Shown piece by piece: positions 7,238-58,575 of a DNA stretch of 64,000 bases. Every line of letters begins with the position of its first letter. Within the stretch, counting starts at the first letter, position 1. The notes beneath the pieces were generated by a model, which made no database searches, had not been told where the DNA came from, and worked only from the letters and a program-made list of their open reading frames with translations. Source of the stretch: Candidatus Woesearchaeota archaeon (GTDB lineage Archaea > Nanobdellota > Nanobdellia > Woesearchaeales > GW2011-AR4); contig JAGVXT010000012.1 in NCBI GenBank assembly GCA_018303655.1, positions 17,996 through 81,995 on the forward strand. The letters run 5' to 3'. Made by a program: the position numbers and the translations under genes.

Positions 7238-7409
7238 TTATTTTAGCCACGGCATTCCGCAATTCTAGCATATTTTCCGTTATGGGTATATGGACGTTCT
7301 TCAAGCTCTATGTACAAAAACCACTGAAAATTTGATACAAAATAGTAAAAATTTGTCTTCTTTACCCTAAATAAGCCCGATTTTGCTCTTTTTTAGCGCG
7401 ATTAAACCT

Positions 7410-55095: not shown

Positions 55096-55572
55096 TTGAA
55101 AATGATAAAAATAAGAAGCATAATGACAAAGGAGGTTGTAACGATTTCGCAAAACTCAAGCATAGTCGAAGCTGCAACCAGTATGTCGTCTAAATTTGTT
55201 AGCAGTTTGCCAGTAGTCATTGAGAAGGATAAGCCTATTGCCATTATAACGGAAAAAGATATAATAAAAGGCGCCATTTCCAAGAAAAAAAAGGTTAAAG
55301 ATATCATGAATAAAGAATTTAAGATTATCTCAACCGATGCAAGATTTTCTGAGGTCATTAAGTTTTTGAAAGAAGGAAAAACTGAAAGATTTATTGTTAT
55401 GGAAAATGAAAGATTAATGGGATTGATAACAGAAACTGACGTAATACAGGCAACGAGGGACTTCACAAGATTCCACCAGATGGTGCAAGAGGCCATACTG
55501 GCCATTTTTGGTTTTGCAACAGCCTTCTTTTTATTTTACTTCAGCCCAATGGGAGCATCTGTTTTTGGGTGA
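55096..55572 (+). CDS. CBS-domain pair protein with a C-terminal TM helix
   Basis: Tandem paralog of the previous gene (SLPVVIEKDKPIAIITEKD and RFIVMENERLMGLITETD). Confidence 0.65.
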   Translation: MKMIKIRSIMTKEVVTISQNSSIVEAATSMSSKFVSSLPVVIEKDKPIAIITEKDIIKGAISKKKKVKDIMNKEFKIISTDARFSEVIKFLKEGKTERFIVMENERLMGLITETDVIQATRDFTRFHQMVQEAILAIFGFATAFFLFYFSPMGASVFG

Positions 55573-55620
55573 ATAGCCATCAGAAAAATATATATACATC
55601 ACGAAAACCAAATGTGCTGA

Positions 55621-55787
55621 GGGCCTGTGGTCTAGCGGCTATGACATCGCCTCGACATTTGCTTTAATTCAGCTATCGGCACGGCGAAGGTCACCAGTTC
55701 GAAATGTCGAGTCCCGAGATGCGAGGTTCGCGAGAAACTCGCTCACCAGCTACCGAGACTCGCAAACCGAAAATCTGGTCGGGCCCA
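55621..55787 (+). tRNA. tRNA-Val(GAC)-like with two introns (37/38 and 59/60) and an unusual C33
   Basis: Acceptor GGGCCTG/CGGGCCC, anticodon stem TCGCC/GGCGA, loop T-C-GAC-A|C, intron 1 at 55658-55681 (24 nt, good BHB). T-arm ACCAG-TTCGAA|intron 2 at 55704-55773 (70 nt)|T-CTGGT, with TTCG pairing to CGAA and 3-nt bulges. Confidence 0.65.
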
Positions 55788-55852
55788 TTTATTACATAAA
55801 AAAAGGTGAGAGAATTAAATCAAGGCTTTATCCAAGGATATTCTTCTCTGTA

Positions 55853-56896
55853 TTGTTTTTTGCAATCTTGCTGCTTGCTTTCTACATAACAAGGCCTTTT
55901 CTGCCGGCGCTTTTCACAGGAGCAATCATAGCCTATTTGGCGTATCCATTGTATGAGAAAATATTAAGGCGCATCAGGAAAAAGCACATTGCTGCATTTA
56001 TTGTCACAATATTTATAATTCTTCTATTCACATTGCCATTTGTCCTTATTCTTGGTGTTGTTTCAAAAGAAGCTTACGCCACATATATAACCTTAAGCCA
56101 GCATAACCTTGGGACAAACTTCCTGAAGGTAGTATGTAAGGATGAGAACTGGCTGTCCTGCAAATTTACAAAATCCTTTGTCGGATTTTTGCCGGAAGAA
56201 GACCTTGATTATTACCTTCAGGCCACAATTAAAAGAATAACGGGCTTTATTATAGACAATGCCTCTAAATTTGTGGCTACAATCCCCTCAATCCTGTTGA
56301 ATTTCTTTGTCATGATTTTTGTGGTTTATTATTTGCTTAAAGACGGCGAAGCAATAGGAAAGAGGATAAAAAACATACTGCCTTTGAAAGAGTCCCACAA
56401 GCAGCATGTGCTCGATAAGTTCAGTGAGGTTACATCAGCGGTACTCTATGGCAACATCTCAACAGCGCTTATGCAGGGCATTTTGGGTGGTCTTGGATTC
56501 TGGATAATTGGAATGTCATCGCCGATTTTATGGGGGTTTGTGATGATGCTGTTTGCATTAGTGCCTTATTTCGGCACAGCCATTGTGTGGCTGCCAGCTG
56601 CATTAAACCTCATATTCATAGGTTATCTTCAAAATGACAACTCATCTACAATTCGTGGCATTATTCTGGTTGCCTATGGGATATTGGTTATAAGCAGCAT
56701 TGATAACATACTTAAGCCAAGATTGATAGGAGCAAAAGGAAAAGTGCATCCTGTTTTGGTGCTTCTTGGAGTCTTAGGCGGCCTGAGCCTGTTCGGGTTT
56801 ATAGGGTTAATTCTGGGGCCTGTGATGCTTGCCCTGCTGATGACGTTTGTCGGCATATATGAAGAGGAAAAAGCAGAGCTTGAGAAATATTTTTGA
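55853..56896 (+). CDS. AI-2E family (PerM/UPF0118) transporter
   Basis: 347 aa, polytopic, with a characteristic C-terminal half (ALVPYFGTAIVWLPAAL...ISSIDNILKPRLIG). Confidence 0.75.
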   Translation: MFFAILLLAFYITRPFLPALFTGAIIAYLAYPLYEKILRRIRKKHIAAFIVTIFIILLFTLPFVLILGVVSKEAYATYITLSQHNLGTNFLKVVCKDENWLSCKFTKSFVGFLPEEDLDYYLQATIKRITGFIIDNASKFVATIPSILLNFFVMIFVVYYLLKDGEAIGKRIKNILPLKESHKQHVLDKFSEVTSAVLYGNISTALMQGILGGLGFWIIGMSSPILWGFVMMLFALVPYFGTAIVWLPAALNLIFIGYLQNDNSSTIRGIILVAYGILVISSIDNILKPRLIGAKGKVHPVLVLLGVLGGLSLFGFIGLILGPVMLALLMTFVGIYEEEKAELEKYF

Positions 56897-58389: not shown

Positions 58390-58575
58390 TACGCCGCGAC
58401 TCGGACTTGCATGTGGCAAACAGTGACATGCGAGGCTCACTAGGGACTCGCTCGCCATTTACCCGCTTGCCACAATTTGAACCGAGAAACCCTTGCGGGA
58501 ACCAGCTTTCGCATTGCGGGGAATTCCCATGAATTCCAGCTCAAGGCTAGCGCAGTGCCAGATTGTGCCATCGCG
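58390..58575 (-). tRNA. tRNA-Ser(UGA) with two introns (37/38 and 59/60)
   Basis: Acceptor GCCGCGA/TCGCGGC plus G73, anticodon stem CTAGC/GCTGG, loop CTTGAG|A (anticodon 58539-58541), intron 1 at 58506-58537 (32 nt). Long variable arm (CCCgcaaGGG). T-arm CTCGG-TTCAAA|intron 2 at 58404-58473 (70 nt)|T-CCGAG. Confidence 0.75.

What the first reader, a model, noticed from the sequence alone, without database searches (positions are those of the whole stretch)
55621..55787. Two-intron tRNA-Val-like gene with a 70-nt T-loop intron and C at position 33
- **Seen, intron 1:** it lies at 55658-55681 and has a clean hBHBh' motif. The central helix TCGA pairs with TCGG, with 3-nt bulges on both sides.
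- **Seen, intron 2:** it lies at 55704-55773 and splits the T-loop at 59/60. TTCG pairs with CGAA, with AAA and AAT bulges. Splicing restores a canonical TTCGAAT loop.
- **Seen, odd anticodon loop:** the spliced loop reads UCGACAC, so it has C33 instead of the near-universal U33.
- **Seen, extra pairing:** CTCGACAT in the anticodon region is complementary to ATGTCGAG at the start of intron 2. This could form a long-range pre-tRNA pairing.
Basis: seen in the sequence. Interest (0 to 1): 0.6.

Follow-up and report, generated by a model that had tools for sequence, protein, structure and literature searches.

The report
Two-intron valine tRNA with C33
This is a real valine tRNA gene of a tiny groundwater archaeon (Woesearchaeota), split by two protein-spliced introns, which is a known arrangement; its odd C next to the anticodon is genuine, is shared by about a third of its order, and always comes with an A four bases further on.

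Summary
**Observation:** confirmed to the base.
- Removing 55658-55681 (24 nt, site 37/38) and 55704-55773 (70 nt, site 59/60) from 55621-55787 gives a 73-nt cloverleaf. ARAGORN calls it tRNA-Val(GAC).
- The unconstrained fold of the precursor shows both bulge-helix-bulge motifs.
- The genome encodes the splicing endonuclease EndA and the ligase RtcB.
- This is the only tRNA-Val(GAC) found, and GUU plus GUC make up 61% of valine codons.

**C33:** genuine.
- Every possible 24-nt excision leaves C33.
- About 49 related genes with no anticodon-loop intron read TCGACA directly.
- All 16 other tRNAs detected in this genome have U33.
- C33 is not order-wide. Among 156 Woesearchaeales Val(GAC) genes, positions 33/37 read U/G in 59, C/A in 52, U/U in 40, U/A in 3 and C/G in 2. 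Sister orders have no C33.
- The C33/A37 coupling recurs in at least seven or eight families and at one syntenic locus within a genus. I found no report of it.

**Rest of the finding:**
- The 70-nt intron is a ~31-nt intron enlarged by a genus-specific hairpin repeat.
- The 8-nt "long-range pairing" is not conserved and looks like chance.

**Verdict:** a known kind of gene with one modestly novel lineage trait.

The parts
55584..55597 (+). A/T-rich box (AAAAATATATATAC) 24-37 nt upstream of the mature 5' end; likely the archaeal BRE/TATA promoter
   Evidence: Read directly from the sequence. The position matches the usual archaeal TATA spacing. This is an inference and was not tested.
55621..55657 (+). 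Exon 1: tRNA positions 1-37 (acceptor 5' strand, D arm, anticodon stem 5' strand, loop U32 C33 G34 A35 C36 A37)
   Evidence: The 5' part is 97-100% identical in sister species.
55658..55681 (+). Intron 1: 24 nt at the canonical 37/38 site, with a strict hBHBh' motif
   Evidence: All 11 resolved orthologues in the genus carry an intron at this site, 12-55 nt long.
55682..55703 (+). Exon 2: positions 38-59 (C38, anticodon stem 3' strand, variable loop AGGUC, T stem 5' strand, UUCGAA)
55704..55773 (+). Intron 2: 70 nt at 59/60 in the T-loop. The bulge-helix-bulge motif is strict at the 3' site and relaxed (3x3 internal loop) at the 5' site
   Evidence: The same site holds an intron of 15-154 nt in 27 related Val(GAC) genes.
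55720..55752 (+). Repeat element nested in the apical loop of intron 2. Its core is TGCGAGGTTCGCGAGAAACTCGCTCACCA (55720-55748), and it is flanked by the direct repeat CCGAGA (55714-19 and 55753-58)
   Evidence: The genome holds 5 copies with at most 6 mismatches. There are many copies in at least 17 genomes of the genus and none outside it. An empty version of the same intron exists in Val(TAC) of G011, and a version with the element reversed exists in G019. The element folds as its own hairpin.
55774..55787 (+). Exon 3: positions 60-73 (U60, T stem 3' strand, acceptor 3' strand, discriminator A73). CCA is not encoded
55788..55793 (+). T-rich tract (TTTATT) directly after the gene; a plausible archaeal terminator
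   Evidence: Read directly from the sequence. This is an inference.

Best explanation
**What it is.** 55621-55787 is the functional gene for tRNA-Val(GAC), the only one found in this Woesearchaeota (DPANN) archaeon.

**How it is made (inferred, not shown).**
- It is transcribed as a precursor of about 167 nt.
- The alpha-type splicing endonuclease EndA cuts at the two bulge-helix-bulge motifs. This releases a 24-nt intron from the anticodon loop (37/38) and a 70-nt intron from the T-loop (59/60).
- RtcB joins the three exons into a 73-nt tRNA, and CCA is added afterwards.

**C33.** C33 is encoded, not an artefact of the chosen junction. It is one of three anticodon-loop forms of this tRNA in the order Woesearchaeales: UCGACA, UUGACG and UUGACU. 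C33 occurs almost only together with A37. The tRNA is inferred to decode GUC and GUU normally, as the natural C33 tRNA-Leu(GAG) of yeast does.

**Intron 2.** It is long because a ~39-nt copy of a genus-specific palindromic repeat inserted into the loop of an ordinary ~31-nt intron. There it is harmless, because it is spliced out.
For: **Gene model**
- Sequence and ARAGORN call on the spliced product.
- Both motifs appear in the unconstrained fold, z = -3.0.
- Intronless and one-intron orthologues score 53-61 bits on Rfam tRNA, against a gathering score of 29.

**Function**
- In 87 distinct mature sequences of the C33 type, 10 of 20 stem pairs show compensatory double changes.
- The gene is syntenic with the downstream transporter gene across the genus.
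- It lies in an ORF-free gap.
- No second Val(GAC) was found, while Val(TAC) and Val(CAC) are present.
- Per 1000 codons: GTT 28.2, GTC 9.5, GTA 13.3, GTG 11.2.

**Splicing machinery**
- EndA with N-terminal and catalytic domains.
- RtcB at 560.9 bits.

**C33**
- About 49 genes without an anticodon-loop intron read TCGACA.
- All 16 other tRNAs detected in this genome have T33.
- Positions 33/37 in 156 Woesearchaeales genes: U/G 59, C/A 52, U/U 40, U/A 3, C/G 2.
- In 80 genomes of other orders of the class: U/G 29, U/A 6, U/U 4, and no C33.
- A global pattern scan finds the C33 form almost only in Woesearchaeota records.
- A syntenic pair in one genus differs at exactly positions 33 and 37 of the loop.
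- Yeast tRNA-Leu(GAG) with C33 is nearly as active as its U33 variant (PMC13492127).

**Nested repeat:**
Against: - There are no RNA data.
- The 5' side of the intron 2 motif is relaxed. Alpha4-type endonucleases were classically thought to need strict motifs, although DPANN alpha4 enzymes are reported to be associated with disrupted tRNA genes (PMC5829648).
- The genome is about 88% complete, and my tRNA census is incomplete. A divergent second Val(GAC) gene therefore cannot be fully excluded.
- The 33/37 survey only sees genes with an uninterrupted GTCTAG...ATGAC...GAC stretch, which is about half of the genomes. The Fisher test is not corrected for phylogeny.
Confidence: 0.88

Rival explanations
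1. C33 is corrected to U33 after transcription by C-to-U editing, so the mature tRNA is canonical.
For: U33 is nearly universal. C-to-U tRNA editing exists in archaea at another position (C8 in Methanopyrus; from my own knowledge). No RNA data could be consulted.
Against: - Genes of the cytidine-deaminase fold (PF00383) are no more frequent in 40 C33 genomes than in 40 U33 genomes. Six C33 genomes have none.
- Natural C33 tRNAs work unedited in yeast (PMC13492127).
- The tight coupling of C33 to A37 would be pointless if position 33 were rewritten.
Confidence: 0.06
2. The locus is a decaying pseudogene, or a tRNA-like remnant that is not used in translation.
For: Standard tools miss it. It has C33, a very long T-loop intron and a repeat insertion.
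Against: - All stems are intact.
- It is conserved and syntenic across the genus, and the family shows compensatory changes.
- It is the only GAC isoacceptor found, while GUY codons are 61% of valine codons.
- The repeat lies wholly inside the part that is spliced out.
Confidence: 0.03
3. The gene is tRNA-Ala(GGC), spliced at 34/35, which is what ARAGORN proposes once intron 2 alone is removed.
For:: ARAGORN labels the product with one intron removed as tRNA-Ala(ggc), intron at 34/35.
Against: - That register has no bulge-helix-bulge motif: the would-be central helix GCCU/CUAU does not pair.
- Pair 3:70 is G:C, not the G:U alanine identity pair.
- Intronless orthologues read GAC directly.
Confidence: 0.01
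4. The 8-bp complementarity between the anticodon region and the start of intron 2 is a functional pre-tRNA pairing, for example one that orders the two splicing events.
For: The 8-nt complement is exact. It is reached by only 1.6% of shuffles against the anticodon-arm window.
Against: - It is absent from all 26 other Val(GAC) genes with a T-loop intron, where the maximum is 5 nt.
- The same intron start sits in Val(TAC) genes whose anticodon arm does not match it.
- It competes with both bulge-helix-bulge motifs and is not in the minimum-energy fold.
- Against the whole precursor, 8.5% of shuffles reach 8 nt.
Confidence: 0.04
5. The conserved core inside intron 2 is a functional RNA (a guide, a protein-binding element or a stable circular RNA) rather than a selfish DNA repeat.
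For: - The core is 97-100% identical between species whose introns otherwise differ.
- One copy shows a compensatory change in the inner hairpin, GCAAG/CTTGC.
- Archaeal introns can host small RNAs (from my own knowledge).
Against: - It occurs in both orientations relative to the host pre-tRNA: sense here, antisense in the tRNA-Ser intron at 58429-58457 and in Val(TAC) of G019.
- Copies also lie outside tRNA genes.
- It has no box C/D motifs and no Rfam match.
- An empty site exists.
Confidence: 0.1

Closest known systems
Multiple-intron tRNA genes of Thermoproteales and DPANN archaea (Sugahara et al. 2008 and Fujishima et al. 2010, from my own knowledge; DPANN including Woesearchaeota in PMC5829648)
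   Same: - Protein-spliced bulge-helix-bulge introns at 37/38 plus a non-canonical site.
- Standard tRNA finders miss the genes.
- Intron presence, length and sequence change quickly between close relatives.
- The same intron occurs in different isoacceptor genes, which suggests intron movement or gene conversion.
   Different: Nothing in kind. Here the T-loop intron has also been enlarged by a nested repeat. The endonuclease is a single alpha-type protein rather than the (alpha-beta)2 or epsilon2 enzymes first linked to non-canonical introns.
Natural elongator tRNAs with C33: tRNA-Cys(GCA) of Sulfolobales (PMC7668247) and tRNA-Leu(GAG) of Saccharomyces cerevisiae (PMC13492127)
   Same: - C replaces the near-universal U33 in a tRNA that is used for decoding.
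- In all three cases the next base is G34.
- The yeast case shows experimentally that C33 costs little.
   Different: - Here C33 sits in the only tRNA for the commonest valine codons of the organism. The yeast tRNA is non-essential.
- It is spread over at least 37 families of an order.
- It is tied to A37, with U33/G37 and U33/U37 as the alternative states. I found no description of that coupling.
Cross-loop U33-A37 pairing in unmodified anticodon loops, normally prevented by modification of base 37 (PMC5699536; Stuart et al. 2000, PubMed 11063577)
   Same: It provides a physical reason why bases 33 and 37 could constrain each other. The two Watson-Crick combinations, U/A and C/G, are the rare ones here (3 and 2 of 156).
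   Different: This is a resemblance in logic only. No structure or modification data exist for this tRNA. Val(TAC) and Val(CAC) of the same genome keep U33/A37.
Bacterial REP/REPIN and miniature inverted-repeat (MITE-like) elements
   Same: A short palindromic repeat with many copies per genome, found in both orientations, with an empty site available for comparison.
   Different: It is archaeal and specific to one genus, and it repeatedly lands in the loops of tRNA introns. No transposase was identified. The 6-nt direct repeat is seen only at this copy.

Membership tests
Archaeal bulge-helix-bulge (BHB) tRNA intron | Two 3-nt bulges on opposite strands, separated by a 4-bp helix, with a splice site in each bulge | tested here: met
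   Intron 1 is strict: UCGA/UCGG with bulges CAU and CAC. Intron 2 has UUCG/CGAA with bulges AAA and AAU, but its 5' bulge faces three unpaired bases (AAC), so it is relaxed on that side.
Archaeal bulge-helix-bulge (BHB) tRNA intron | Removing the introns restores a canonical cloverleaf | tested here: met
   The product is 73 nt with 7/4/5/5-bp stems and T-loop TTCGAAT, and ARAGORN calls it tRNA-Val(gac).
Archaeal bulge-helix-bulge (BHB) tRNA intron | Splicing endonuclease and RNA ligase encoded by the organism | tested here: met
   EndA (PF02778 plus PF01974) as a 233-aa ORF on contig C36. RtcB at 560.9 bits on contig C18.
Archaeal bulge-helix-bulge (BHB) tRNA intron | The introns are actually excised in vivo (spliced reads, circular introns) | not testable with these tools
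Functional tRNA-Val(GAC) | Anticodon GAC, with A35, C36 and discriminator A73 (ValRS identity elements, from my own knowledge) | tested here: met
   Read from the spliced sequence. G3:C70 excludes alanine identity.
Functional tRNA-Val(GAC) | Conserved in relatives, with compensatory changes in the stems | tested here: met
   87 distinct mature sequences; 10 of 20 stem pairs show double compensatory changes. The parser itself required paired stems, so the percentage of cells paired is circular, but the variety of pair types is not.
Functional tRNA-Val(GAC) | U at position 33 (the U-turn) | tested here: not met
   C33 here and in 52 of 55 A37-type genes of the order. This is a departure from the general tRNA rule. 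It does not bar membership, because natural C33 tRNAs decode (PMC13492127).
Functional tRNA-Val(GAC) | Charged by ValRS and used on the ribosome | not testable with these tools
   Inferred only. It is the sole GAC isoacceptor found, and GUY codons are 61% of valine codons.
Short palindromic mobile repeat (REP/MITE-like), for the nested element | Several near-identical copies per genome, in both orientations | tested here: met
   5 copies in this genome. Many copies in at least 17 genomes of the genus. Both orientations relative to host tRNAs.
Short palindromic mobile repeat (REP/MITE-like), for the nested element | An empty site exists at a homologous location | tested here: met
   The Val(TAC) 59/60 intron of G011 has the same arms, ATGTCGAGT...CGAGACTCGCAA, without the insert.
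Short palindromic mobile repeat (REP/MITE-like), for the nested element | Target-site duplication and a cognate transposase | tested here: inconclusive
   A CCGAGA direct repeat flanks this copy. Other copies have inverted flanks (CAGTGA...TCACTG) and no direct repeat. I did not look for a transposase.

The most novel reading that the evidence does not exclude
Positions 33 and 37 of the single, essential tRNA-Val(GAC) of Woesearchaeales co-evolve as a functional pair.

- The lineage moves among U33/G37, C33/A37 and U33/U37. These are combinations of wobble type. U-G and C-A are the classic isosteric exchange.
- It almost never holds the two Watson-Crick combinations, U/A (3 of 156) and C/G (2 of 156).
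- On this reading C33 is not a tolerated defect but the compensating partner of A37. Either it prevents a loop-closing 33:37 Watson-Crick pair, or it preserves a wobble-type contact.
- A variant reading is that the diversity flanking a fixed anticodon reflects escape from an anticodon-loop nuclease.
Probability: 0.25. Interest if true: 0.6.

Novelty: new member of a known kind. Interest (0 to 1): 0.4.

Why it matters
**Annotation.** Standard tools find only 16-19 tRNAs in this 1.26-Mb genome. The missing ones, including the main valine tRNA, are hidden by introns. Claims that DPANN archaea lack tRNAs therefore need intron-aware searches.

**tRNA biology.**
- U33 is one of the most invariant bases in biology.
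- Here a whole archaeal clade uses C33 in the only tRNA that reads its commonest valine codons, and always together with A37.
- The same order also uses a pyrimidine, U37, at a position that is normally a purine.
- This offers a natural series of loop variants on one tRNA body: UCGACA, UUGACG, UUGACU and the rare UUGACA. The series could be used to test what the U-turn base and base 37 contribute to loop structure and decoding.

**Intron evolution.** The case also shows spliced introns acting as safe landing sites for a small mobile repeat, which explains unusually long tRNA introns.

Tried and rejected
**1. Detection with standard tools.** ARAGORN and Rfam on the raw window do not find the gene. 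Neither does a permissive Rfam scan of 55500-55900, whose only match was a chance tracrRNA hit at E = 1.9.

**3. My own motif scan.** The first version was mis-indexed and was corrected. The strict version missed intron 2 because its inner helix is set back, so I relaxed it. The resulting census recovered about 10 further tRNA loci. It remains incomplete, and its anticodon calls are noisy.

**4. "C33 is universal in the order".**
- This was my reading.
- It was wrong, because my pattern required A37.
- Intronless U33/G37 and U33/U37 genes turned up, and the unbiased count is.

**5. [quoted passage not shown].** Not supported. This genome has a Trm5/TYW2-family gene at 153.7 bits.

**6. "A dedicated cytidine deaminase edits C33".** There is no difference in PF00383 content between C33 and U33 genomes.

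**7. A general "illicit U33-A37 pair" rule.** Weakened, because Val(TAC) and Val(CAC) of this genome keep U33/A37.

**8. Box C/D small RNA in intron 2.** There is no RUGAUGA or CUGA motif.

**9. Alanine identity.** Rejected (see the rival explanations).

Full report
**1. What is at 55621-55787**

The stretch lies in a 280-nt gap free of ORFs. It sits between a CBS-domain gene (55096-55572) and a transporter gene (55853-56896), both on the + strand. No ORF of 50 aa or more crosses it on either strand.

Reading the sequence gives the following parts:

| Part | Coordinates | Sequence |
|---|---|---|
| Acceptor stem | 55621-27 with 55780-86 | GGGCCUG / CGGGCCC |
| D arm | from 55630 | GUCU-AGCGGCUA-UGAC |
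| Anticodon stem | 55647-51 with 55683-87 | UCGCC / GGCGA |
| Variable loop | 55688-92 | AGGUC |
| T stem | 55693-97 with 55775-79 | ACCAG / CUGGU |
| Discriminator | 55787 | A73 |

- Removing 55658-55681 and 55704-55773 gives a 73-nt sequence that ARAGORN calls tRNA-Val(gac).
- On the raw window, ARAGORN and Rfam both miss the gene.
- An A/T-rich box lies 24-37 nt upstream and a T-rich tract follows the gene. Both are consistent with an archaeal promoter and terminator. This is inference from the sequence only.

**2. The introns**

Intron 1 (24 nt, site 37/38) is a textbook hBHBh' motif.
- Loop bases 32-35 (UCGA) pair with UCGG near the intron's 3' end.
- The 3-nt bulges are CA|U and CA|C.
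- The anticodon stem lies on one side and a short intron hairpin on the other.

Intron 2 (70 nt) has the same plan on the T arm.
- T-loop bases 54-57 (UUCG) pair with CGAA.
- The bulges are AA|A and AA|U, next to the T stem.
- Its inner helix is set back by three bases, so the 5' splice site lies in a 3x3 internal loop. That is the relaxed form of the motif.

The unconstrained minimum-energy fold of the 167-nt precursor already contains the acceptor stem and both motifs. Its energy is -63.5 kcal/mol, z = -3.0.

The genome encodes the two enzymes needed:
- a single alpha-type EndA with N-terminal and catalytic domains;
- RtcB.

Published work reports that DPANN archaea, including Woesearchaeota, have alpha4-type EndA variants associated with heavily disrupted tRNA genes, and that their tRNA sets cannot be fully predicted (PMC5829648). 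This genome fits that picture: standard tools find only 16-19 tRNAs in 1.26 Mb.

**3. Lineage and orthologues**

Record titles of matching contigs name the group as Candidatus Woesearchaeota.

Sister species of the genus carry the same gene upstream of the same transporter gene.
- All 11 resolved genus orthologues have a 37/38 intron of 12-55 nt.
- Seven of them also have a 59/60 intron of 15-98 nt with unrelated sequence.

Across the order, about 90 C33-type genes resolve into complete cloverleaves:

| Intron content | Genes |
|---|---|
| No intron | 42 |
| 37/38 only | 22 |
| 59/60 only | 7 |
| Both | 20 |

Other support:
- Intronless and one-intron orthologues score 53-61 bits on the Rfam tRNA model.
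- Among 87 distinct mature sequences, 10 of 20 stem pairs show compensatory double changes.
- No second Val(GAC) gene turned up in this genome, by similarity, by the motif-removal census or by a direct anticodon-arm scan.
- Val(TAC) and Val(CAC) are present.
- GUU and GUC together are 61% of valine codons.

The gene is therefore needed, and I take it to be functional.

**4. C33**

C33 does not depend on where the intron is cut. Every 24-nt excision leaves TCGACAC or TCGGCAC, and only the 37/38 register has a bulge-helix-bulge motif. About 49 related genes without an anticodon-loop intron read TCGACA directly. All 16 other tRNAs that ARAGORN finds in this genome have T33.

My first survey suggested that C33 was universal in the order. 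That survey required A37 and was biased. A similarity search in other families turned up intronless genes with TTGACG and CTGACT loops.

I then counted all states in the same 301 genomes. There was one gene per genome, 156 of them were readable, and no genome carried two forms. I also counted 80 genomes from other orders of the class.

| Position 33 / 37 | Woesearchaeales (156 genes) | Other orders (39 hits) |
|---|---|---|
| U / G | 59 | 29 |
| C / A | 52 | 0 |
| U / U | 40 | 4 |
| U / A | 3 | 6 |
| C / G | 2 | 0 |
| C / U | 0 | 0 |

From these counts:
- The ancestral loop was probably UUGACG.
- C33 is confined to Woesearchaeales, where it is found in at least 37 families.
- C33 is almost always accompanied by A37.
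- Both forms occur within seven or eight families and within two genera.
- In genus g49 the intronless genes of G197 (TCGACAT) and G319 (TTGACTT) share a syntenic upstream flank. They differ in the loop at exactly positions 33 and 37.

A global scan of 185,579 species genomes for the C33 form returned almost only Woesearchaeota records, plus a few bacterial chance hits.

**5. Why C33?**

This part is inference.

Precedents show that C33 can work.
- Sulfolobales tRNA-Cys(GCA) has C33 (PMC7668247).
- Yeast tRNA-Leu(GAG) has C33, and changing it to U33 makes little difference (PMC13492127).
- Both are followed by G34, as here.

The rarely seen 33/37 combinations are the two Watson-Crick ones, U/A and C/G. 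The common ones, U/G, C/A and U/U, are of wobble type. An illicit U33-A37 cross-loop pair is known to collapse unmodified anticodon loops (PMC5699536). C33 may therefore relieve such a pair where A37 cannot be modified.

Three results bear against sub-hypotheses here:
- Val(TAC) and Val(CAC) of this same genome keep U33/A37.
- A Trm5-family gene is present, so loss of G37 methylation does not explain the switch to A37.
- C-to-U editing by a deaminase of the cytidine-deaminase fold gets no support from gene content.

I therefore hold the coupling as established at the level of counts, and its cause as open.

**6. Why intron 2 is 70 nt**

Part of intron 2 (55720-55748, TGCGAGGTTCGCGAGAAACTCGCTCACCA) recurs elsewhere.
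- There are four more copies in this genome.
- There are many copies in at least 17 genomes of the genus, and none outside it.
- One copy lies in the T-loop intron of the minus-strand tRNA-Ser at 58429-58457. There it is antisense to the host, whereas here it is sense.

Comparison with sister species shows how the intron grew.
- The Val(TAC) gene of G011 has the same intron arms, ATGTCGAGT...CGAGACTCGCAAGCAGAAAA, with only a 32-nt intron.
- In G019 the same intron holds the core in reverse orientation.
- In this gene the insert is flanked by a direct repeat, CCGAGA.
- Another species has the core in an unrelated 123-nt Val(GAC) T-loop intron (L103).

So intron 2 is an ordinary ~31-nt intron enlarged by a small palindromic repeat that lands in either orientation. 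The repeat is tolerated because it is spliced out. This agrees with earlier notes of this scan on the same genome, which I tested only in part.

**7. The proposed long-range pairing**

The 8-nt complement is exact, but three observations count against a function.
- It is unique to this gene.
- The conserved intron start also occurs in Val(TAC) genes with non-matching anticodon arms.
- The segment pairs inside the intron in the predicted fold.

Shuffles reach 8 nt in 1.6-8.5% of trials, depending on how wide a target is allowed. I read it as coincidence.

**8. Verdict**

Multi-intron tRNA genes are a known kind, including in DPANN archaea.

- The C33/A37 form of the main valine tRNA is a trait of a large part of Woesearchaeales, held in a three-state system with U33/G37 and U33/U37. 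I found no report of this.
- The long intron is explained by a nested repeat.

No RNA-level evidence could be obtained.

Noticed in passing
Order-wide survey; intronless examples in L173 and L193-L195; own genome contig C2:37116-37187: A pyrimidine (U) at position 37, which is normally a purine, occurs in 40 of 156 Woesearchaeales tRNA-Val(GAC) genes, with loops TTGACT or CTGACT. It is confirmed in intronless genes. The tRNA-Ala(CGC) of this genome also reads CT[CGC]TA, that is U37.
   Followed up: partly
window 58429-58457: A diverged copy of the intron 2 core repeat lies in the T-loop intron of the minus-strand tRNA-Ser gene, in the opposite orientation relative to its host tRNA.
   Followed up: partly
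L125 (Limnoglobus roseus PX52 chromosome, about 7345-7372 of the locus): This cultured planctomycete has a complete cloverleaf tRNA-Val(GAC)-like gene with an archaeal-looking D arm and the loop CCGACAC (C32, C33). Earlier AI notes of this scan describe C33-rich accessory tRNA arrays in planctomycetes.
   Followed up: no
Record titles (for example L065, L068, L054): Many MAGs titled 'uncultured Methanosarcinales archaeon ... binchicken' are the same contigs as genomes that the tool places in the window's own order or genus (for example G173 and G009). Their NCBI names look wrong.
   Followed up: partly
L106 and L054: The 'Patescibacteria UBA2163' contig (L106) carries the same Woesearchaeota-type tRNA stretch as L054, so it is probably mis-binned.
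   Followed up: partly
G000:C18:27424-28767 (-): The RtcB ligase gene matches its Pfam model end to end but has one in-frame TGA.
   Followed up: no
L158 (G000:C36, about 38.4-41.7 kb): The single EndA gene lies head to head with a metallo-beta-lactamase-fold gene that looks like tRNase Z (HWHGDH motif). Two tRNA-processing enzymes therefore appear to be neighbours.
   Followed up: no
Whole genome: Standard finders detect only 16-19 tRNA genes. Removing one candidate bulge-helix-bulge intron at a time exposes about 10 more, for example Asp at C7:46872-47006, Pro at C8:62574-62667, Leu at C13:10414-10522 and Gln at C18:73363-73505.
   Followed up: partly
L103 (JACPBQ010000002.1), T-loop intron of its Val(GAC) gene: A different species has a 123-nt 59/60 intron of unrelated sequence that also contains the core repeat (CAGTGAGATGCGAGGTTCGCAAGAAACTCGCTCACCATTTCGCTG). 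This suggests repeated landing of the repeat in T-loop introns.
   Followed up: no
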